A DNA stretch of 64,000 nt, taken from IMG/VR virus record IMGVR_UViG_2974575442_000001; one strand, written 5' to 3'. Below are positions 13,664-41,559 of the stretch, in pieces. Both the position numbers and the translations under genes were made by a program. Source of the DNA: Streptomyces virus Karimac (Duplodnaviria; Heunggongvirae; Uroviricota; Caudoviricetes). How positions within the stretch are numbered: position 1 is the first letter of the stretch; each line of letters begins with the position of its first letter. The notes beneath the pieces are model-generated. The model ran no database searches, had not been told where the DNA came from, and saw only the letters and a list, made by a program, of their open reading frames with translations.

Positions 13664-14284
13664 ATGTCTACTACTACAGCAATGTTGCTCATCGTTGATC
13701 GATCTGGTAGCATGTCTAGTATCCAGATGGAAGCTGAGCAAGCGCTGAATGACTTCCTGACTAAGCAGAAGGCTGTTGACGGCCGATGTGGAGTCAAGGT
13801 TGTTCAGTTTGATGGTGAAGTAGAAGATCTATTTGGTCCAGTTGCTCTAGCTCAAGCTCCTGAGATTAAGATCGTTCCTCGTGGAATGACTGCACTACTT
13901 GACGCAATCGGCAAGTCTGTGACAGAATTCAGGGAGACGATGGATCATATGCCGGTGGATAAGCGACTCGTCGTTATTCTCACCGATGGTCTTGAGAATG
14001 TGTCTCAGGAGTGGAAGCTAGATGCAGTTAATAAGCTGATTAGCGAGTCAAGGGAGCTGGGCTACGAGTTCATCTTCCTTGCCGCTAACCAGGATGCAAT
14101 TGCAACTGGCGCTCAGATGGGTATTCCAACAGCTTCAAGTTTGACCTTTGCGGCTAGTCCGGCTGGTGTACGTGGCATGGGAATGACTATGGACATGTAC
14201 GTCACCAACTATCGTGAAGGTAAGGCAGCAGAATTCACTGATCAGGATCGGGCCACAGCGTCCGGTTTGACAGACGAAGACTGA
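13664..14284 (+). CDS. von Willebrand factor A domain protein
   Basis: MIDAS motif DRSGSMS near N-terminus; vWA-like length. Confidence 0.55.
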   Translation: MSTTTAMLLIVDRSGSMSSIQMEAEQALNDFLTKQKAVDGRCGVKVVQFDGEVEDLFGPVALAQAPEIKIVPRGMTALLDAIGKSVTEFRETMDHMPVDKRLVVILTDGLENVSQEWKLDAVNKLISESRELGYEFIFLAANQDAIATGAQMGIPTASSLTFAASPAGVRGMGMTMDMYVTNYREGKAAEFTDQDRATASGLTDED

Positions 14285-14304
14285 TCTGTTAGAGTAGTAA
14301 ATGT

Positions 14305-14368
14305 GGGTCGAAGGGCTCGGTCGGTTATCTTACATTGGAAATAGAAAGGTCATTAAATTGGCCACCCG
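14305..14368 (+). ncRNA. Y-RNA-like element (degenerate copy), 5' motif GGGTCGAAGGG...TCGGTTATCTTACA
   Basis: Aligns closely with the 22370 locus (GGGCCGAATGGAATCGGTTATCTTACAC...); terminal helix not convincingly found. Confidence 0.3.
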
Positions 14369-14392
14369 ACTCCCAACACTTATCCACATAAT

Positions 14393-14466
14393 GCGGATGT
14401 AGTTTAATGGTAAAACCCCTGCCTTCCAAGCAGACGACGGGAGTTCGATTCTCCTCATCCGCTCCA
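14393..14466 (+). tRNA. tRNA-Gly (anticodon TCC)
   Basis: Cloverleaf by hand: acceptor gcggatg/catccgc, T-arm gggagttcgattctcc, anticodon loop ctTCCaa, CCA encoded. Confidence 0.8.
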
Positions 14467-14595
14467 TAGACCCGGATTCGCCTCTGTCATCTTTTGTGAT
14501 ATGCTACCGGCGAGATGTAGTCTAGAATGCATCTCGGTATCTGACCCGGATATGTTAAGAGAGCGCCAGGCTCTACAACTGGCAGGGTAACACAT

Positions 14596-14667
14596 TCCCC
14601 ATTGGTGTAACCGGCAACACAGCAGACTCTGACTCTGTCGTTCCTAGTTCGAATCTAGGGTGGGGAG
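14596..14667 (+). tRNA. tRNA-Gln (anticodon CTG)
   Basis: Acceptor tccccat/gtgggga, D stem gtgt/acac, anticodon loop ctCTGac, T-arm cctagttcgaatctagg. Confidence 0.6.
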
Positions 14668-14791
14668 CTGGTCCGACTTTACGATATCGGCGGAAATAAT
14701 CGAATCGGAACGCACGCAATAACCTAGGTAAAGGTGCGGAATGAGGAGAGGAAATATGCGGGAAGCGATGGGTAAAACCTCCTCGGACCGA
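14668..14791 (+). ncRNA. Y-RNA-like ncRNA with CTGGTCCGA 5' motif
   Basis: 5' CTGGTCCGA is identical to the conserved 5' end of metazoan Y RNAs; pairs with 3' TCGGACCG to close a ~124-nt RNA; contains AATCGAATCGG motif shared with other loci. Confidence 0.45.
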
Positions 14792-14899
14792 CAATTTGTG
14801 GCCTAGTTGCAGGCCAGAATAGAATAGTGGATCTCCCTGGGTTAGGCGCTTACGCCGTCCACTGTTTGAATTCAAAGGGGTCACGCCCAAGCAACTTAT

Positions 14900-14971
14900 G
14901 CGCCCTTAGTGTAATGGCTTTGCACACGAGCTTCCAAACCTCTTAGAGTGGGTTCGATTCCTACAGGGCGT
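14900..14971 (+). tRNA. tRNA-Trp (anticodon CCA)
   Basis: Acceptor gcgccct/agggcgt, anticodon loop ttCCAaa (one C-C mismatch in stem), T-arm gtgggttcgattcctac. Confidence 0.5.
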
Positions 14972-14985
14972 GCTTGTATAATAGA

Positions 14986-16034: not shown

Positions 16035-16556
16035 ATGACGGTACTTCTTAGGACTATCCACGGAAGCCATCTGTATGGCCTCGCTCACGCAAACAGCGAT
16101 AAGGACATTTACGAAGTAATTGCAACCAATCGCACGAAGCGTAAGCGAAACATTAAGCAAACCATTGCGAATGGTGTTGACAAGACGACGGTAGATATGT
16201 CAACATTTATGAAGATGGTTGATGATTGCGTACCTCAAGCACTTGAAGCGCTATGGACGCCGGTCGCTGAGATCGATAAGATCCACGAATTCCGGACACA
16301 ATATCGAGTGAATCGCGCCAAGATGAAAGATGTGTACGTACGAACTGCCCTTAACTTCGCTAAGGGTGATGGGGTAAAGCAGAAGAAGCACGCAGTGCGA
16401 TTGCTGTTGAACCTTGGTCACACTTTGGAGTTTGGAAAGTTCAATCCTCGATTGGGTGCAATGGATAAGATCATTATCAATGCATCTGTCGGAGACGCGG
16501 GAAAGTATGATGCCGTGTTCGACGCTCTAATTGATGAGGTCGGCCGGTGGATATAA
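16035..16556 (+). CDS. minimal nucleotidyltransferase (Pol-beta superfamily)
   Basis: HGSHLYGLAHANSDKD matches the hG[GS]x9-13Dh[DE] NTase signature; sits inside the tRNA cluster. Confidence 0.45.
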   Translation: MTVLLRTIHGSHLYGLAHANSDKDIYEVIATNRTKRKRNIKQTIANGVDKTTVDMSTFMKMVDDCVPQALEALWTPVAEIDKIHEFRTQYRVNRAKMKDVYVRTALNFAKGDGVKQKKHAVRLLLNLGHTLEFGKFNPRLGAMDKIIINASVGDAGKYDAVFDALIDEVGRWI

Positions 16557-22246: not shown

Positions 22247-22320
22247 CTTTTGGGTCGAATGACTATCGGTTATCTGTCTATGAAACAGACTGAAACACGG
22301 TTCGAATCCGTGGATTGCTT
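22247..22320 (+). ncRNA. Y-RNA-like / tRNA-like hybrid element upstream of Ro60 gene
   Basis: 5' TTTTGGGTCGAATGACTATCGGTTATC (Y-RNA motif), then tRNA-like anticodon hairpin (gtct-atGAAac-agac) and perfect T-arm cacggttcgaatccgtg; no pairing acceptor. Confidence 0.4.
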
Positions 22321-22369
22321 TGGCGCTAGGTTTACGGTCGATGTCAACAACTTACCCATACAATTTTAT

Positions 22370-22437
22370 ATCGGGCCGAATGGAATCGGTTATCTTACAC
22401 TGCAAATATAAGGTCGATTCCTACCAACTTGCCCGAT
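22370..22437 (+). ncRNA. Y-RNA-like ncRNA with bulged-C terminal helix
   Basis: 5' ATCGGGC[C]GAA pairs with 3' TTGCCCGAT giving the canonical Y-RNA helix with a bulged C; interior GAATGGAATCGGTTATCTTACAC...aggtcgattcct T-arm-like hairpin; ~30 nt upstream of the gene preceding Ro60. Confidence 0.55.
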
Positions 22438-22465
22438 CTTTTCATTTCTACGAAAGGATCGAAGG

Positions 22466-22837: not shown

Positions 22838-24466
22838 ATGTCCAACGCACTAACTAATGCCGCAAAGGCAACCAACAAGACTTCTCAGTCAATGAAGGCT
22901 AAGGCTGGACAGGTTAAGAACAACGCTGGTGGATTCGTCTTCCAGGTTTCTGATCAGTCTCGTCTTGAGCGCTTCCTGATTCTGGGAACTGATGGAGGAA
23001 CGTATTACGTCTCTGAGGTTAACCACACCCAGAGCAACGTAGAATTCCTCAATGAGTTCATTGCTCGTGACGAAGCCTCTGTACTGAACACAATCGTTGA
23101 TGTATCTGTCAATGGTCGTGCGTACAAGCAGAGTCCAGCCCTGTTCGCTCTAGCCTCTGTCATTGTCAACGGCAAGGATAAGCAGGCGGTCAAGGCTGTA
23201 TTCAACAAGGTCGTAAGGACTGCTACTCACCTCTACGAGGTGGTTAACTACCTTAACGAGCTTGGCGGATGGGGTCGCGCAAAGCGTGAAATCGTAGCTA
23301 GCTGGTTCGATAAGGATGCTGATAAGCTTGCTTATCAGGCAGTCAAGTATCGTTCCCGTAAGTTCGGTGGAAACACCTGGACGCTGCGAGACGTAATGCG
23401 AAAGGCTCACCCACAGAACGTTAACACGTCTGTTGCTGATTTTGTCCTAGGCAAGGAGCACGCGGCTGTAGATGACCTTCGGGTTATTGAGGGCTTCAAG
23501 CTTATGCAGAAGGCGGAGTCTGTAGAGAGTGTTCACGCAGTTCTGCGGGACTACGAGATGCTTTCTTGGGAGACAATTCCAACACAGTTCCTCACGGATG
23601 CTAGTGTTTGGAAGCGACTCTTCGCAAATGGTCAGCTTCGTGGTCAGGCTGCTGTTCGAAACATCACTCGCCTCGCGCGTATTGGTGCTTTCAAGGACAT
23701 GCAGTTTGCTGCGAGCTTCGCTGGTCAGCTAACGAATGAGGAACTGATTCGTCAGTCTCGACTGCACCCAATTAACTTCCTTAACGCTGCCGTTGTTTAC
23801 GCAGAAGGCCAGGTGGATCGAAAGAACTACTATGGCGGACGCGTAAAGAACTGGGAGACTGAGGCCGTTATTGTCGATGCAATCGATGAGGCGTTCCACA
23901 AGTCATTCAAGACCATTGAGCCAGCCGGTAAGAGGACGATGCTAGCCATCGACTGTTCCGGATCAATGAGTGCTATGGCTATGGGTCTCGACCTAAGCTG
24001 TGCACAGGTTGCTGGTGCTATGGCGATGACCATTGCGCGTACAGAGCCAGCTCACATTCTTCGCGGCTTCTCTAGCGTGGGGTACAACTGGCGTGACAGC
24101 GGTATGACCGAACTCAAGATTACTGGTCGCAGCTCTCTTGCTCAGGCAATGAGTGCAATGCGTGCGGTAAACTGGGGCGGTACAGACTGCTCACTGCCAA
24201 TGACGTGGGCTCTTGAGAACGGTGTGGAAGTTGACACCTTTGTCGTTATCACTGATAACGAGACATGGGCTGGCAAGATTCACCCATTCCAGGCTCTAAA
24301 GAAGTACCGTAAGGACACTGGCATTGATGCCCGACTTGCTGTTCTAGGAGTTGCTTCAACGCCATTTACTATCGCTGACCCAAGTGATAGCGGAATGATG
24401 GACTTCGTTGGCTTCGATAGCAACGCTCCACGTGTTCTGGCCGACTTCTCCGCAGGTCGAATCTGA
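22838..24466 (+). CDS. rsr: Ro60-like protein (TROVE domain plus C-terminal vWA/MIDAS); Rsr orthologue
   Basis: 542 aa; C-terminal MIDAS LAIDCSGSMS...GGTDCSLPM...VVITDNETW as in Ro60 vWA domain; N-terminal region of Ro60-like length and composition; Y-RNA-like genes nearby. Confidence 0.6.
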   Translation: MSNALTNAAKATNKTSQSMKAKAGQVKNNAGGFVFQVSDQSRLERFLILGTDGGTYYVSEVNHTQSNVEFLNEFIARDEASVLNTIVDVSVNGRAYKQSPALFALASVIVNGKDKQAVKAVFNKVVRTATHLYEVVNYLNELGGWGRAKREIVASWFDKDADKLAYQAVKYRSRKFGGNTWTLRDVMRKAHPQNVNTSVADFVLGKEHAAVDDLRVIEGFKLMQKAESVESVHAVLRDYEMLSWETIPTQFLTDASVWKRLFANGQLRGQAAVRNITRLARIGAFKDMQFAASFAGQLTNEELIRQSRLHPINFLNAAVVYAEGQVDRKNYYGGRVKNWETEAVIVDAIDEAFHKSFKTIEPAGKRTMLAIDCSGSMSAMAMGLDLSCAQVAGAMAMTIARTEPAHILRGFSSVGYNWRDSGMTELKITGRSSLAQAMSAMRAVNWGGTDCSLPMTWALENGVEVDTFVVITDNETWAGKIHPFQALKKYRKDTGIDARLAVLGVASTPFTIADPSDSGMMDFVGFDSNAPRVLADFSAGRI

Positions 24467-28354: not shown

Positions 28355-28408
28355 CTTTGAGAATACTCGCGATATTCTCAAATGCATATCAGGTCGCTCC
28401 TGATATGA

Positions 28409-28528
28409 GGAGTGTAGTTTAATTGGCAAAACCGCGAAATGCAATGTCGAAAGGGAAGTGCTGCTACGGCGGGTCTTACCTTAGTAGATATCAGAGTAGC
28501 AGTTGCGGGTTCGAGTCCCGTCACTCCG
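28409..28528 (+). ncRNA. unresolved ~120-nt tRNA-like RNA (acceptor-like stem ggagtg/cactcc plus T arm)
   Basis: T-arm gcgggttcgagtcccgt and terminal 6-bp stem enclose ~107 nt including 8-bp stem gctgctac/gtagcagt; too long for a tRNA and too short for tmRNA. Confidence 0.25.
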
Positions 28529-28668
28529 CTAGCCTGAGATGACGATCCGATGTAGGTCCCCTAGGGCTTGCGCAGGCCCGAAGGGCATTCGGGAAAGGTG
28601 CCTAGCTAGGTCCGTCTACCAATAAGGTGAGAGTTTTTCACGGCTTTTCTCATAATTAAACCGTGTTT

Positions 28669-28741: not shown

Positions 28742-28819
28742 AATGACTTATGGGAGTTGAGAGGCATCACATGCCCGACTGTAATCGGGTGATCGCAGGT
28801 TCGAATCCTGCCCCTATGG
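28742..28819 (+). tRNA. tRNA-like element without pairing acceptor stem
   Basis: Perfect T-arm gcaggttcgaatcctgc; extended hairpin atcac-atg-cccga-ctgtaa-tcggg-gtgat; 3' ccctatg has no 5' partner. Confidence 0.25.
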
Positions 28820-28826
28820 TCAGCAA

Positions 28827-29602: not shown

Positions 29603-29680
29603 ATGCGAAACGAAGGCAGTATCCTATGGACGATTGTCGCAATTCTAGCGATTATCGCTCTAGTGATCTTTATTTTCTAA
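29603..29680 (+). CDS. 25-aa hydrophobic micropeptide (MRNEGSILWTIVAILAIIALVIFIF)
   Basis: Perfect SD aggagg 6 nt upstream of ATG; single predicted TM helix; preceded by small hairpin. Confidence 0.35.
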   Translation: MRNEGSILWTIVAILAIIALVIFIF

Positions 29681-29687
29681 GATTTTA

Positions 29688-29740
29688 GGCTGGCCGATAC
29701 GAACCCCATCGTATCCTCGCCCGAGGGTTAGGGACCAGCG
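29688..29740 (+). ncRNA. Y-RNA-like stem module (GGCTGGCCGA ... GGGACCAGC) upstream of tRNA-Lys
   Basis: 5' GGCTGGCC resembles Y-RNA 5' end GGCUGGUCCGA; pairs with 3' GG[A]CCAGC giving a bulged helix; two internal hairpins (gatacga/tcgtatc; cctcg/cgagg). Confidence 0.4.
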
Positions 29741-29743
29741 CTT

Positions 29744-29818
29744 GCTCCAGTCGCACAATCTGGTCGTGCAACGGACTCTTAATCCGTGTGGATGTCGGTT
29801 CAAATCCGACCTGGAGTA
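29744..29818 (+). tRNA. tRNA-Lys (anticodon CTT)
   Basis: Acceptor gctccag/ctggagt, D stem gcac/gtgc, anticodon stem acgga/tccgt with loop ctCTTaa, T-arm gtcggttcaaatccgac. Confidence 0.75.
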
Positions 29819-36839: not shown

Positions 36840-36911
36840 GCATGTAAGCCAGGGATAAGCTAGGCGGGCCTGTAAAGCCCTACCTCGTTGGTTCGAATCC
36901 AACTACATGCA
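36840..36911 (+). tRNA. class-I tRNA with Tyr anticodon GTA (short variable arm)
   Basis: Perfect acceptor gcatgta/tacatgc, loop ctGTAaa on 4-bp stem, T-arm gttggttcgaatccaac. Confidence 0.45.
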
Positions 36912-39677: not shown

Positions 39678-39954
39678 GGGGATGCCTTGGTTTCGACTGG
39701 GGTGGATGACTTTAGTTTGCAGCCAGACATTGAGGAGATGTCTTTAAAAAGCCTCAAACCTATAAATGCCAACTCTAACGTTGCGTCTGCCTACGCCCTA
39801 GCGGCGTGATGGCCGGGCGGCAACTGCCTAGGAACAGAAAGTTGCGAATGTTTGGCCCGGTGGGGATAAACACATGCACTACCTGCTTGACACATGGCTG
39901 TGTATAGACTACTGTTTGAAGCATCAGGACGCGGGTTCGACTCCCGCCATCTCC
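39678..39954 (+). ncRNA. ssrA: tmRNA (SsrA), tag peptide (A)ANSNVASAYALAA
   Basis: 5' GGGGATGCCTTGGTTTCGACTGGGGT and 3' GGACGCGGGTTCGACTCCCGCCATCTCCAC align with E. coli ssrA ends; acceptor with G3-U70; tag ORF GCC AAC TCT AAC GTT GCG TCT GCC TAC GCC CTA GCG GCG TGA at 39767-39808. Confidence 0.8.
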
Positions 39955-39968
39955 ACTTAAGGATCAAC

Positions 39969-41464: not shown

Positions 41465-41534
41465 TGTCACATAGCTTAATGGGCAAAGCAGTCTTAGGCC
41501 AAAGACGATGTTGGTTCGAGTCCAACTGTGACAG
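41465..41534 (+). tRNA. tRNA with non-canonical (6- or 8-nt) anticodon loop
   Basis: Perfect acceptor tgtcaca/tgtgaca and T-arm gttggttcgagtccaac; anticodon hairpin gtctt-aggcca-aagac. Confidence 0.4.
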
Positions 41535-41559
41535 CAATATCAATTAGACTTCATAATCT

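What the first reader, a model, noticed from the sequence alone, without database searches (positions are those of the whole stretch)
14668..14791. RNA element starting with the exact metazoan Y-RNA 5' sequence CTGGTCCGA
Directly after tRNA-Gln the sequence reads GCTGGTCCGAC, identical to the conserved 5' end of vertebrate Y RNAs (GGCUGGUCCGA). Its complement TCGGACCG lies 115 nt downstream, so a ~124-nt stem-closed RNA is possible. The interior carries AATCGAATCGG, a motif also present in the 22370 locus and upstream of the 21658 tRNA-like element. A related module GGCTGGCCGA...GG[A]CCAGC occurs at 29688-29740 upstream of tRNA-Lys.
Basis: seen in the sequence. Interest (0 to 1): 0.6.

Follow-up and report, generated by a model that had tools for sequence, protein, structure and literature searches.

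The report
Phage tRNA-island RNA with self-pairing loop
The stretch is a real, previously undescribed 126-base structured RNA gene wedged between tRNA genes of a Streptomyces phage; its resemblance to animal Y RNA is confined to one lineage's version of a covarying end helix, while its conserved feature is a loop that can pair with itself.

Summary
The window is Streptomyces phage Karimac (MH590599.1). CTGGTCCGA (14668-14676) and its complement (14783-14790) are there and do pair. The element (14669-14794) belongs to a family of about 30 distinct variants, found only in Stanwilliamsviridae-type Streptomyces phages and absent from Rfam.

On a curated alignment, five helices form a three-way junction: 95.6% of cells are paired against 36-44% in slid controls, and 19 of 24 pairs show compensatory changes.

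The Y-RNA heptamer is not a family feature. Other members carry GGAACGU, GGACGC or CACACGC at that position, with matching partners. Karimac's helix has no bulged C and reads CGAC, not CGAA.

Canonical Y-like RNAs lie next to the phage Ro60 gene, 8 kb away. One of them approaches the Rfam stem-bulge RNA model.

The conserved features are:
- flush placement against tRNA genes;
- a 3' tail that reads ACCA or GCCA in many members (GACA in Karimac);
- an 18-nt apical loop holding the 8-nt palindrome ACCWWGGU.

Two lineages that purged CCATGG from their genomes switched the loop to CCUAGG, never to a single-step variant.

Best reading: a tRNA-array-processed RNA with an acceptor-like end that dimerises through its loop. 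Its function is unknown, and Ro60 binding is not excluded.

The parts
14669..14676 (+). P1 5' strand (UGGUCCGA). It begins at the first base after tRNA-Gln and contains the GGUCCGA heptamer.
   Evidence: Pairs with 14783-14790. In A4, 4 of the 8 P1 pairs show changes on both sides, and the C-G/G-C step (14674-14675) is invariant in all 27 sequences.
14677..14687 (+). J1, an unpaired linker (CUUUACGAUAU). It is ACAGAA in most other members.
   Evidence: Segmentation.
14688..14691 (+). Px 5' strand (CGGC)
   Evidence: Pairs with 14758-14761. All 4 pairs covary across the family (C-G/U-A and C-G/G-C/U-A). Karimac has one G-G mismatch.
14692..14704 (+). Ja, the purine-rich 13-nt side of a symmetric 13x13 internal loop
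   Evidence: Ja is 13 nt in all 27 curated variants; the opposite side Jb is 13 nt in 25 of them (9 in Braelyn, 14 in L066).
14705..14706 (+). P2a 5' strand (UC)
   Evidence: Pairs with 14743-14744. U-A is replaced by C-G in 9 sequences; C-A/U-G occurs in L179 and G-A/U-C in L422.
14707..14710 (+). Conserved GGAA, one side of a 4x4 loop (opposite GAAU at 14739-14742)
   Evidence: Nearly invariant columns in A3 and A5.
14711..14715 (+). P2 5' strand (CGCAC)
   Evidence: Pairs with 14734-14738. 100% of cells are paired and 4 of 5 pairs have changes on both sides.
14716..14733 (+). Conserved 18-nt apical loop, GCAAUAACCUAGGUAAAG. The self-complementary 8-mer ACCUAGGU lies at 14722-14729.
   Evidence: The loop core is invariant in the family apart from the central AU/UA. 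The palindrome is kept through a double substitution in the two lineages that purged CCATGG. Self-duplex energy is -11.4 kcal/mol, against -4.7 and -6.3 for the single-step intermediates.
14734..14738 (+). P2 3' strand (GUGCG)
14743..14744 (+). P2a 3' strand (GA)
14745..14757 (+). Jb, the purine-rich 13-nt side of the internal loop
14758..14761 (+). Px 3' strand (GCGG)
14767..14781 (+). P3 hairpin (GA[U]GG-GUAAAA-CCUC). In Loccivirinae members it is a 5-bp stem carrying a further covarying extension.
   Evidence: All 5 P3a pairs show changes on both sides. A-U becomes U-A in Bmoc. The extension covaries by eye: CCAAGA/UCUUGG, CCUAGA/UCUAGG, GCUGC/GCGGC.
14783..14790 (+). P1 3' strand (UCGGACCG)
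14791..14794 (+). 3' tail ACAA (G14790 plus ACA corresponds to N-CCA in other members)
   Evidence: The tail reads ACCA in Loccivirinae-type members, GCCA(A) in Yaboi, Anedea, L180 and L146, and GACA(A) in the Karimac group. In 10 contexts the next tRNA starts 0-3 nt after the tail.
14596..14668 (+). tRNA-Gln(ctg), whose 3' end abuts the element (context, not part of the RNA)

Best explanation
Window 14669-14794 (+) encodes a member of an undescribed family of structured noncoding RNAs, 123-150 nt long, specific to large Streptomyces phages of the Stanwilliamsviridae.

Shown:
- The RNA folds as a three-way junction. One arm is a terminal helix P1 made from the 5' and 3' ends. The second is a long irregular arm: Px, a 13x13 purine-rich internal loop, P2a, a GGAA/GAAW loop, P2, and a conserved 18-nt apical loop. 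The third is a hairpin, P3, next to the 3' strand of P1.
- The gene sits flush against tRNA genes on the tRNA strand.
- The apical loop carries an 8-nt self-complementary sequence, and that self-complementarity is under selection.

Inferred:
- The RNA is transcribed as part of the tRNA array and cut out by the tRNA-maturation enzymes. RNase P cutting at the downstream tRNA, and RNase P or RNase Z cutting at the upstream boundary, would set its ends.
- The product would have a 7-8 bp end helix and a short single-stranded tail, N-CCA in many members, that imitates a tRNA acceptor end.
- Two molecules pair loop to loop through ACCWWGGU to form a homodimer, or the contact seeds a larger assembly.

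Speculative: the RNA acts as an accessory tRNA-end mimic (decoy or scaffold) within the phage's tRNA, tmRNA, Ro60 and RNA-repair programme.

The GGUCCGA match to Y RNA is one lineage's version of the covarying P1 helix. It is not the defining feature of the family.
For: Identity and distribution.
- The window is 100% identical to phage Karimac.
- The element is a precise 126-nt presence/absence difference between close relatives.
- blastn finds one copy per genome in 48 phage records.
- Loop-motif scans of IMG/VR and metagenomes add more variants, all on phage-type contigs; the bacterial genome scan gave only chance hits.

Structure.
- RNAalifold independently recovers P2, P2a and Px.
- On the curated alignment A4, 95.6% of cells are paired against 36-44% when partners are slid. 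19 of 24 pairs have changes on both sides. The covariation score is 0.654 against at most 0.124, and no shuffle in 500 reaches it.
- Frequent U-G and G-U pairs fit only the + strand, the strand of the tRNAs.
- Karimac's free minimum-energy fold equals the consensus fold.

Novelty.
- No Rfam family matches at gathering score, or at E<=10.
- A covariance model of the core finds one copy in the window and none around Ro60 in Rhodococcus phage Trina or Mycobacterium phage Catera.

Processing context.
- An upstream tRNA (Gln-CUG or Asn) abuts P1, or overlaps it by 2 nt, in 28 of 34 contexts.
- The next tRNA starts 0-3 nt after the ...ACCA tail in 10 contexts.
- A sigma-70-like promoter lies at 14267-14295, with no terminator-like site before tRNA-Trp.

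Self-pairing loop.
- All 27 curated variants have CCAUGG (24) or CCUAGG (3); none has a single-step variant.
- Karimac has 0 CCATGG in 131,909 bp (31 expected). Kenrey has 0 in 34 kb (6.6 expected) and Gilson-like L145 has 0 in 14 kb. These are exactly the genomes with a CCUAGG loop.
- LukeCage, Daubenski, Mildred21 and Coruscant carry CCATGG at roughly expected numbers elsewhere and keep CCAUGG in the loop.
- The self-duplex is -11.2 or -11.4 kcal/mol for the natural loops, against -4.7 and -6.3 for the intermediates.
- No second ACCTAGGT lies in the window. The whole genome has one other, at record 54561, inside a coding region.
Against: - There is no transcript data. The ends, stability and any CCA addition are inferred.
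- Karimac's own tail is GACAA, not N-CCA, and 105 nt separate it from tRNA-Trp.
- There is no T-loop or D-loop, so RNase P recognition is a guess.
- For the single Karimac sequence, the folding energy is not unusual (z = -0.88).
- The curated alignment was fitted to the proposed structure, which inflates the pair counts somewhat. The slid controls and the independent RNAalifold result mitigate this.
- Palindrome conservation rests on two independent switch events.
- A dimeric protein that reads only the outer bases could in principle also explain the palindrome.
- The element is dispensable: a whole clade (CeilingFan and about 17 relatives) lacks it.
- The proposed decoy or scaffold role has no direct support.
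Confidence: 0.6

Rival explanations
1. It is a Y RNA. The P1 helix with GGUCCGA is bound by the phage Ro60 (gp130), and the rest of the RNA tethers or gates Ro60, as Y RNAs do in animals, Deinococcus, Salmonella and Thermus phage phiLo.
For: - The heptamer that X. laevis Ro60 contacts (PMC4201824) is matched exactly, at the 5' end of a terminal helix.
- The phage encodes Ro60 with TROVE and vWA_Ro60 domains.
- P1 is nearly invariant among the 13 Karimac-type variants (at least 94% identity), although their interiors diverge to 64%.
- The C-G/G-C step in P1 is invariant in the whole family.
- Loccivirinae members have a purine-purine mismatch in P1, a distortion loosely like the Y RNA bulge.
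- Single substitutions in the CGAA motif lower phiLo Ro60 binding only 3- to 4-fold (PMC12135203).
Against: - The heptamer is replaced by unrelated sequences, with compensating partners, in Yaboi, L179/L180, L146 and all Loccivirinae members. These phages also encode Ro60.
- Karimac's helix has no bulged C and reads CGAC.
- There is no GUUAUC or CAACUUG upper-stem motif and no T or D arm.
- No Rfam Y or stem-bulge RNA match appears at E<=10, whereas 22367-22439 scores 33.9 bits on RF01656.
- The element lies 8 kb from Ro60, while three CGAA-bearing modules lie within 600 nt of it or at the head of the array.
- Ro60 is retained at 99.8-100% identity in phages that deleted the element.
- The family is absent around Ro60 in Trina and Catera.
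Confidence: 0.15
2. It is a cis-acting spacer of the tRNA precursor, for example a processing, folding or stability signal. It would have no function of its own once cut out.
For: - It sits flush between tRNA genes.
- It is dispensable in a whole clade without loss of the flanking tRNAs.
- Other conserved hairpins exist in the neighbouring spacer at 14795-14899.
Against: - An 18-nt loop and two purine-rich internal loops are conserved across two phage subfamilies, while the flanking tRNAs differ (Gln/Trp versus Asn/Arg or Gln).
- The palindrome is preserved by a double substitution when the restriction site is purged.
- Five covarying helices are more than a processing hairpin needs.
Confidence: 0.1
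3. It is a decayed tRNA or tmRNA-like gene, a relic with an acceptor stem and no present function.
For: - It has a 7-8 bp terminal helix with an N-CCA-like tail.
- A 5-bp stem occupies the T-arm position.
- The loop contains UAAUAACC, a string I recall (from memory, not checked with the tools) at the end of the tag reading frame of E. coli tmRNA.
- It lies inside a tRNA array that also holds a tmRNA gene.
Against: - ARAGORN and the Rfam tRNA and tmRNA models find nothing in 14669-14794.
- There is no T-loop or D-loop.
- Strong purifying selection and compensatory evolution across about 30 variants are not what a pseudogene shows.
Confidence: 0.05
4. The functional object is DNA: a palindromic protein-binding site or a small mobile insertion near the terminase and HNH genes.
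For: - It is a precise 126-bp presence/absence difference.
- It has an 8-bp palindrome flanked by inverted repeats.
- Terminase and an HNH endonuclease lie about 1.5 kb upstream.
Against: - Many conserved U-G and G-U pairs would be A-C mismatches on the other strand, which indicates an RNA read from the + strand.
- There are no target-site duplications or terminal repeats.
- There is one copy per genome.
- A sequence-reading protein should not tolerate CCATGG changing to CCTAGG.
Confidence: 0.04

Closest known systems
Y RNAs: metazoan Y and nematode stem-bulge RNAs (Rfam RF00019, RF01656), and bacterial or phage YrlA/Yrl RNAs
   Same: - It is a small RNA closed by a helix made from its 5' and 3' ends.
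- Karimac's 5' strand carries the Ro60-contact heptamer GGUCCGA.
- It is encoded in a genome with a Ro60 orthologue.
- It lies among tRNA genes, as actinobacterial YrlA RNAs mimic and are processed like tRNAs (PMC4201824).
   Different: - The motif is not conserved in the family.
- There is no bulged C, no CGAA, and no tRNA-like T and D arms.
- There are no upper-stem Y motifs and no covariance-model match.
- It is not adjacent to Ro60.
- Canonical Y-like RNAs exist separately in the same phage, at 22367-22439, at about 22250-22345 and at about 14303-14378.
ROOL and GOLLD RNAs
   Same: - They are phage or prophage noncoding RNAs of unknown function, 'often near tRNA islands', that form RNA-only homo-oligomers (PMC12286853).
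- This RNA is also phage-encoded, lies inside a tRNA island, and has a selected self-complementary loop.
   Different: - It is 4-6 times smaller (126-150 nt against more than 500 nt).
- Its sequence and secondary structure are unrelated, and no Rfam match was found.
- Oligomerisation here is inferred, not observed.
- The palindromic loop predicts a dimer rather than a cage.
Phage T4 RNAC and RNAD (species 1 and 2 RNAs)
   Same: They are small stable RNAs of still unknown function (PMC9697503). From memory, they are encoded within the T4 tRNA gene cluster and released by tRNA-processing enzymes.
   Different: No sequence or structural similarity was tested or is expected. The host phylum and phage family are different.
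tRNA-like domain of tmRNA
   Same: - The topology is the same: an end helix with a single-stranded N-CCA tail, a long arm leaving the junction, and a short hairpin next to the 3' strand.
- It is encoded in the same phage region as a real tmRNA (39678-39956).
   Different: - There is no T-loop and no G3-U70 alanine identity pair.
- There is no tag reading frame and there are no pseudoknots.
- Neither ARAGORN nor the Rfam tmRNA model detects it.
   Same: A self-complementary 6-8 nt sequence is displayed in an apical loop. Natural variants keep complementarity by paired substitutions, a pattern recalled from memory for the HIV-1 DIS variants GCGCGC and GUGCAC.
   Different: - The biological context is unrelated.
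- pRNA uses two different loops and binds the packaging motor.
- Nothing links this RNA to packaging apart from its position 1.5 kb downstream of the terminase gene.

Membership tests
Y RNA (metazoan Y / stem-bulge RNA type) | Terminal helix formed by the 5' and 3' ends | tested here: met
   P1 (14669-14676 with 14783-14790) is kept through compensatory changes across 27 variants.
Y RNA (metazoan Y / stem-bulge RNA type) | Ro60-contact sequence GGUCCGA(A) on the 5' strand, conserved among homologues | tested here: not met
   It is present in 13 Karimac-type variants only. Others carry GGAACGU, GGACGC, GAACGU, CACACGC, CGCUCGU or CGUUCGG with matching 3' strands. Only the central C-G step is invariant.
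Y RNA (metazoan Y / stem-bulge RNA type) | Bulged C and distorted helix at the Ro60 site | tested here: not met
   Karimac P1 is 8 contiguous pairs. The canonical Y-like RNA at 22370-22436 has lower stem AUCGGGC/GCCCGAU, then a bulged C and G-U and A-U pairs.
Y RNA (metazoan Y / stem-bulge RNA type) | Match to the curated covariance models | tested here: not met
   No hit at E<=10 in 14450-14920. The positive control inside the same window is 22367-22439, which scores 33.9 bits (E=5.5e-5) on RF01656.
Y RNA (any type) | Encoded beside the Ro60 gene (bacteria and phages) | tested here: inconclusive
   It is in the same genome and the same tRNA-rich region, but 8 kb upstream of Ro60 (22838-24466). 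Ro60 is kept at 99.8-100% identity in relatives that lack the element.
Y RNA (any type) | Physical binding to Ro60 | not testable with these tools
   This needs EMSA or RIP with gp130.
YrlA (bacterial tRNA-like Y RNA) | GNCGAAN0-1G / CGAA motif near the 5' end | tested here: not met
   Karimac reads GUCCGAC and the family consensus is CGNAC. The motif definitions come from PMC4201824 and PMC12135203.
YrlA (bacterial tRNA-like Y RNA) | Domain with tRNA-like T and D arms | tested here: not met
   No GUUCGAAUC-type T arm is present. ARAGORN and the Rfam tRNA model find nothing inside 14669-14794. By contrast, 22298-22314 has CACGGUUCGAAUCCGUG.
tRNA-like / tmRNA-type acceptor mimic | 7-bp end helix followed by single-stranded N-CCA | tested here: inconclusive
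   ACCA follows a 7-position helix in the Loccivirinae-type members. GCCA occurs in Yaboi, Anedea, L180 and L146. Karimac and most Boydwoodruffvirinae have GACA. In 4 contexts the next tRNA begins immediately after ACCA.
tRNA-like / tmRNA-type acceptor mimic | T-loop; aminoacylation identity elements; tag reading frame for tmRNA | tested here: not met
   P3 has no T-loop consensus. P1 has no G3-U70 pair. No tmRNA or tRNA model matches.
ROOL / GOLLD (phage tRNA-island RNAs that self-assemble) | Match to the Rfam models, and size above 500 nt | tested here: not met
   There is no Rfam hit. Members are 123-150 nt long.
ROOL / GOLLD (phage tRNA-island RNAs that self-assemble) | Phage-encoded, located in tRNA islands | tested here: met
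   The description of ROOL and GOLLD is from PMC12286853.
ROOL / GOLLD (phage tRNA-island RNAs that self-assemble) | RNA-only homo-oligomer | not testable with these tools
   Support is indirect only: a selected 8-nt self-complementary loop.

The most novel reading that the evidence does not exclude
This would be a new class of small phage RNA with three properties:
- It is excised from a tRNA array.
- It carries a tRNA-like acceptor end.
- It self-associates through a kissing loop, making it a miniature, dimer-forming counterpart of the ROOL and GOLLD tRNA-island RNAs.

It would serve the phage's tRNA and RNA-repair counter-defence, for example as a decoy for host enzymes that attack tRNA 3' ends. 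In the Karimac lineage its end helix would additionally have converged on the Ro60 contact sequence, so that it doubles as a Y-type Ro60 ligand.
Probability: 0.3. Interest if true: 0.8.

Novelty: new variant of a known kind. Interest (0 to 1): 0.6.

Why it matters
Phage tRNA islands are now seen as counter-defence modules, and the large RNAs found beside them (ROOL, GOLLD) have turned out to be self-assembling RNA-only particles of unknown function.

This family is a small and tractable example from the same niche. It is 126-150 nt long, has a well-supported secondary structure and is dispensable in nature. A natural experiment, the purge of a restriction site, points to one specific and testable property: loop-loop self-pairing.

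It also sits in a phage that carries Ro60, several canonical Y-like RNAs, a tmRNA, an RNA ligase, a polynucleotide kinase and an RlaP-type nucleotidyltransferase. That makes it a good system for asking how phages organise an RNA-repair and tRNA-supply programme.

For genome annotation, it is a gene missing from about half of the cluster BE Streptomyces phage records and from Rfam.

The case also carries a methodological lesson. An exact 9-10 nt match to a famous motif proved to be a lineage-specific state of a covarying helix.

Tried and rejected
- **Rfam on the element.** No family matched at gathering score over the whole window, or at E<=10 on 14450-14920. This rules out membership of Y_RNA, stem-bulge RNA, tRNA, tmRNA, ROOL, GOLLD, the ribozymes and the riboswitches.
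- **Rfam on neighbouring loci.** At E<=10, 14200-14400 and 29640-29760 gave only noise.
- **Single-sequence folding.** The energy is not significant (z = -0.88), so one sequence alone does not make the case.
- **RNAalifold on the raw MAFFT alignment.** It missed P1 and P3 because the ends were misaligned across subfamilies. I therefore built a hand-segmented, N-padded alignment. MAFFT shifted one row (L066) by a column, which slightly lowers the counts.
- **Paralogue search with a covariance model.** The 22370 locus, the 21636 locus and the 29688 module are not related to this family.
- **Search in other Ro60 phages.** Trina and Catera, 20 kb either side of Ro60, gave nothing.
- **Bacterial genomes.** Only chance matches to the loop pattern were found.
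- **Coding potential.** There are only short unconserved ORFs. The ATG of the 21-aa ORF is lost in Mildred21 and Coruscant, and the 105-aa minus-strand ORF runs across tRNA-Gln.
- **Loop-loop contact between the P2 loop (UAAUA) and the P3 loop (UAUUA) in Loccivirinae.** It is not kept in L167, L156 or L066, so I rejected it.
- **A k-turn at the 3-nt bulge next to P2a.** The positions after the bulge covary as Watson-Crick pairs, so I rejected it.
- **Resemblances to other RNAs.** Similarities to RNase P conserved regions (ACAGAA, AGAUGAA), to the sarcin-ricin loop and to the 11-nt tetraloop receptor were considered. I dropped them as short coincidences with no model support.
- **A helix extending P2a beyond the bulge.** Support is partial (Karimac, LukeCage, L156, Kenrey) but it is broken in Mildred21, L179, L180 and L066, so I did not include it.
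- **Attributing the CeilingFan-clade deletion to the CCATGG purge.** This cannot be claimed, because the shared ancestor with Karimac may already have carried CCTAGG.
Full report
**Source and context.**
The window is 100% identical to Streptomyces phage Karimac, MH590599.1 (record position = window position + 58074). Karimac belongs to the Stanwilliamsviridae, Boydwoodruffvirinae (cluster BE). The window holds 44 tRNA genes and one tmRNA gene, all on the + strand. It also holds a gene annotated as a Ro-like RNA-binding protein at 22838-24466. Pfam confirms this as Ro60, with vWA_Ro60 at 2e-59 and TROVE at 1.5e-34. The element lies between tRNA-Gln(ctg) (14596-14668) and tRNA-Trp (14900-14973), about 1.5 kb downstream of the terminase and HNH genes. 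No feature is annotated there.

**Checking the observation.**
CTGGTCCGA is at 14668-14676 and TCGGACCG at 14783-14790. Together they give 8 contiguous pairs: U-G plus GGUCCGA/UCGGACC.

As bare strings these matches are unremarkable. GGTCCGA occurs 5 times in the window against 6.2 expected. Allowing up to one mismatch, the 9-mer matches 10 times against 13.6 expected.

The interior motif said to be shared with other loci reduces to the 7-mer GAATCGG, which occurs 9 times against 7.4 expected. The module at 29688-29740 exists and folds into a small three-way structure. It is not related to this element.

**It is a discrete genetic unit.**
Aligning the tRNA-Gln to tRNA-Trp spacers of relatives shows a precise 126-nt presence/absence difference covering 14669-14794.
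- Present: Karimac, LukeCage and, much diverged, Yaboi.
- Absent: CeilingFan and about 17 phages that are at least 95.7% identical to Karimac in the flanks.

blastn with the element finds one copy per genome in 48 phage records, all from Streptomyces. I then scanned three collections with the conserved loop motif (GGAA-N4-7-AATAACCWWGGTAAA):
- IMG/VR gave further variants on contigs of 110-135 kb, including Loccivirinae-type phages such as Kenrey and Gilson.
- Metagenomes gave three more variants.
- One genome for each of 185,579 prokaryotic species gave only chance hits.

In all there are about 30 distinct sequences.

**Structure.**
RNAalifold on a plain MAFFT alignment recovered the P2 hairpin, a 2-bp helix (P2a) and a long-range 4-bp helix (Px). 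Ten of the 11 predicted pairs had compensatory changes.

The ends were misaligned between subfamilies, so I segmented all sequences by hand and counted pairs on the resulting alignment, A4. The five helices are P1 (8 positions), Px (4), P2a (2), P2 (5) and P3a (5). The results:

| Measure | Proposed structure | Controls |
|---|---|---|
| Cells forming standard pairs | 95.6% | 36-44% with 3' partners slid by 1-3 columns |
| Pairs with changes on both sides | 19 of 24 | 5-9 of 24 |
| Covariation score | 0.654 | at most 0.124 |
| Shuffles reaching the observed values | none of 500 | not applicable |

Many pairs are U-G or G-U, which only works for an RNA read from the + strand.

The architecture is strikingly regular:
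- P1;
- a linker, ACAGAA in most members and CUUUACGAUAU in Karimac;
- Px;
- a symmetric 13x13 purine-rich internal loop;
- P2a;
- a GGAA/GAAW 4x4 loop;
- P2;
- an 18-nt apical loop;
- then, on the way back, Px', a linker of about 5 nt, hairpin P3, one C, P1' and a short tail.

Karimac's unconstrained minimum-energy fold is this same structure. For a single sequence, however, the energy is not exceptional (z = -0.88).

**Is it a Y RNA?**
The family answers this directly. P1 is conserved as a helix, not as a sequence:

| Member(s) | P1 5' strand / 3' strand |
|---|---|
| 13 Karimac-type variants | UGGUCCGA / UCGGACCG |
| Yaboi | UGGAACGU / ACGUUCCG |
| L179, L180 | UGGACGC / GCGUCCG |
| L146 | UGAACGU / GCGUUCG |
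| Kenrey type | CACACGC / GCGUGGG |
| L156 type | CGCUCGU / ACGAGGG |
| L066 | CGUUCGG / UCGAAGG |

. Only the central C-G/G-C step is invariant.

The published Ro60 determinants are these:
- GGUCCGA in a bulged helix for vertebrate Ro60, and GNCGAAN0-1G for bacterial YrlA (PMC4201824).
- CGAA for a phage Ro60, where each base matters 3- to 4-fold (PMC12135203).

Karimac's helix has no bulge and reads CGAC. The element has no T or D arm. It matches no Rfam model at E<=10.

The same window contains a positive control. The locus at 22367-22439, about 400 nt upstream of Ro60, scores 33.9 bits (E=5.5e-5; gathering score 38) on the nematode stem-bulge RNA model RF01656. Its features are those of a Y RNA:
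- a lower stem AUCGGGC/GCCCGAU;
- a CGAA-containing internal loop and an upper stem;
- GGUUAUC and CAACUUG motifs.

The fold has z = -2.66. Two further CGAA-bearing modules lie at about 22250-22345 and about 14303-14378. The first has a perfect T arm, CACGGUUCGAAUCCGUG.

Ro60 is found in 115 Streptomyces phage records. These include element-less phages (Jollison, Wipeout, Starbow and PumpkinSpice, at 99.8-100% identity) and the Loccivirinae. A covariance model of the element's core finds nothing within 20 kb of Ro60 in Rhodococcus phage Trina, which is syntenic with Karimac, or in Mycobacterium phage Catera.

The Y-RNA reading therefore fails most of the membership tests that can be run here. 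Ro60 binding in the Karimac-type lineage cannot be excluded. There P1 is at least 94% identical across variants whose interiors fall to 64% identity.

**What is conserved instead: tRNA-flush ends.**
In 28 of 34 contexts an upstream tRNA ends exactly at the first base of P1, or overlaps it by its encoded CCA. That tRNA is Gln-CUG in Boydwoodruffvirinae and Asn in most Loccivirinae-type contigs. In 10 contexts the next tRNA begins 0-3 nt after the tail.

The tail reads:
- ACCA after a 7-position helix in Loccivirinae-type members;
- GCCA(A) in Yaboi, Anedea, L180 and L146;
- GACA(A) in the Karimac group.

A 5-bp stem (P3a) sits one nucleotide from the 3' strand of P1, which is the position of a T stem. 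A sigma-70-like promoter (TTGACA-17-TAGAGT) lies at 14267-14295, and no terminator-like site lies before tRNA-Trp.

From this I infer co-transcription with the tRNAs and release by tRNA-processing enzymes, giving an RNA with an acceptor-like end. That step is not shown. Karimac's own tail is degenerate, and 105 nt of separately conserved hairpins separate it from tRNA-Trp.

**What is conserved instead: a self-complementary apical loop.**
The loop R-UAAUAACC-WW-GGUAAA-R is the most conserved part of the RNA. It contains the 8-nt palindrome ACCAUGGU (24 variants) or ACCUAGGU (3 variants). No single-step variant is seen.

The CCUAGG form arose twice, once in Karimac/Wofford/Elmer and once in Kenrey/Gilson. 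In each case the nearest relatives (LukeCage and L106; L160) have CCAUGG.

These are exactly the genomes that have purged the NcoI-type site CCATGG:

| Genome or stretch | Length examined | CCATGG observed | CCATGG expected | Element loop |
|---|---|---|---|---|
| Karimac | 131,909 bp | 0 | 31 | CCUAGG |
| Kenrey | 34 kb | 0 | 6.6 | CCUAGG |
| Gilson-like L145 | 14 kb | 0 | 2.9 | CCUAGG |
| LukeCage | 34 kb | 4 | 7.1 | CCAUGG |
| Daubenski | 22 kb | 6 | 4.8 | CCAUGG |
| Mildred21 | 22 kb | 6 | 4.8 | CCAUGG |
| Coruscant | 22 kb | 7 | 4.5 | CCAUGG |

So when the site had to go, both lineages took the double substitution that keeps self-complementarity, rather than any of the six easier single changes. 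The predicted self-duplex is -11.4 or -11.2 kcal/mol for the natural loops, against -4.7 and -6.3 for the intermediates.

Base identity changes while complementarity is kept. That favours RNA-RNA loop-loop pairing over a sequence-reading protein. CeilingFan's clade is also purged (0 CCATGG in 34 kb) and lacks the whole element. Whether those two facts are linked cannot be said.

**Most likely mechanism, with its weak points.**
- Shown: this is a conserved, covarying three-way-junction RNA gene on the tRNA strand. It sits flush with tRNA genes and has a selected palindromic loop.
- Inferred: it is excised by tRNA-maturation enzymes, it has an acceptor-like end, and it forms a homodimer by loop-loop kissing.
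- Speculative: it acts as a tRNA-end mimic (decoy or scaffold) in the phage's tRNA and RNA-repair programme. That programme comprises Ro60, Y-like RNAs, tmRNA, RNA ligase, polynucleotide kinase and an RlaP-type nucleotidyltransferase at 16035-16556.

The element is dispensable in nature, as accessory counter-defence genes often are.

**Comparison with known systems.**
- By context and by the inferred self-association, the nearest analogues are ROOL and GOLLD. These are phage RNAs "often near tRNA islands" that form RNA-only homo-oligomers (PMC12286853). Recent work also shows RNAs under 200 nt forming multimers (bioRxiv 10.64898/2026.07.01.735769).
- By position, T4 RNAC and RNAD are similar and are still of unknown function (PMC9697503).
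- By topology, it resembles the tRNA-like domain of tmRNA.
- It is a member of none of these.

I found no paper describing it.

**Verdict.**
The Y-RNA label is not supported at family level. The element is best filed as a new family of tRNA-island RNA, with an unusually clear and testable hint of dimerisation.

Noticed in passing
window 22367-22439 (+): A canonical Y-RNA-like gene lies about 400 nt upstream of the Ro60 gene. It scores 33.9 bits (E=5.5e-5; gathering score 38) on Rfam RF01656, the nematode stem-bulge RNA that is a Y RNA homologue. Its fold has lower stem AUCGGGC/GCCCGAU, a CGAA-containing loop, upper stem GGAAUCG/CGAUUCC, and GGUUAUC and CAACUUG motifs (z = -2.66). It is not annotated in the GenBank record.
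   Followed up: partly
window ~22250-22345 (+): Directly after tRNA-Asp lies GGGUCGAAUG, which fits the YrlA motif GNCGAAN0-1G. It is followed by a perfect tRNA-like T arm, CACGGUUCGAAUCCGUG. This is probably a YrlA-type tRNA-mimicking Y RNA. It is not annotated.
   Followed up: partly
window ~14303-14378 (+), with promoter-like site at 14267-14295: A third CGAA-bearing module, GUGGGUCGAAGGGCUCGGUCGGUUAUCUUACA..., lies upstream of tRNA-Gly and shares GGUUAUCUUACA with the 22370 locus. It starts just after a TTGACA-17-TAGAGT promoter-like site, so it may be the first RNA of this tRNA transcription unit. There is no Rfam hit at E<=10.
   Followed up: partly
window 14795-14899 (+): The spacer between the element and tRNA-Trp is itself conserved and structured, including in phages that lack the element. 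It has a GGCC-loop-GGCC hairpin and a long hairpin whose stem covaries: AGUGGA/UCCACU in Karimac, AAUGAA/UUCAUU in LukeCage and AAUAGA/UCUAUU in Yaboi. The motif AAAGGGGUCACGCCCAA recurs upstream of tRNA-Arg in the Loccivirinae phage Kenrey (L016).
   Followed up: partly
window 29688-29740 (+): A small three-way structure lies 4 nt upstream of tRNA-Lys. It comprises a GGCUGGCC/GGGACCAGC closing stem, GAUACGA/UCGUAUC and CCUCG/CGAGG hairpins, and a GGCCGAU sequence. The fold is -22.2 kcal/mol (z = -1.69). It is unrelated to the family studied here and has no Rfam hit.
   Followed up: partly
whole Karimac genome (L005-L007); also L426, L427: CCATGG (the NcoI-type site) is completely absent from Karimac: 0 in 131,909 bp against 31 expected. 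The same holds for 34-kb stretches of Kenrey and CeilingFan, but not for LukeCage, Daubenski, Mildred21 or Coruscant. GGATCC and CTGCAG are absent from every Stanwilliamsviridae stretch examined. This looks like lineage-specific restriction-site avoidance.
   Followed up: partly
window 13664-14284 (+) and 16035-16556 (+): The gene just upstream of the tRNA array encodes a stand-alone von Willebrand factor A domain protein (VWA_2, 1.3e-6). The 'nucleotidyltransferase' about 1.2 kb downstream matches RlaP, the RNA repair pathway polymerase-beta family (2.9e-5). Both are possible partners for the RNAs of this region.
   Followed up: no
window 28408-28529, 36840-36911, 28748-28821, 41465-41535: Rfam's tRNA model reports two extra matches that ARAGORN does not list. 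One spans 122 nt, which suggests an insertion or intron. ARAGORN calls two tRNAs with 2-base 'anticodons' (tRNA-???). These are odd tRNA-like genes that deserve a look.
   Followed up: no
L424 (Rhodococcus phage Trina) 19631-19839: A 209-nt feature annotated as a 'tRNA-OTHER' pseudogene lies immediately upstream of Trina's Ro60 gene. It is likely a YrlA-type Y RNA mis-annotated as a tRNA. Trina is syntenic with Karimac (terminase, HNH, tRNA arrays, Ro60, band-7 protein).
   Followed up: no
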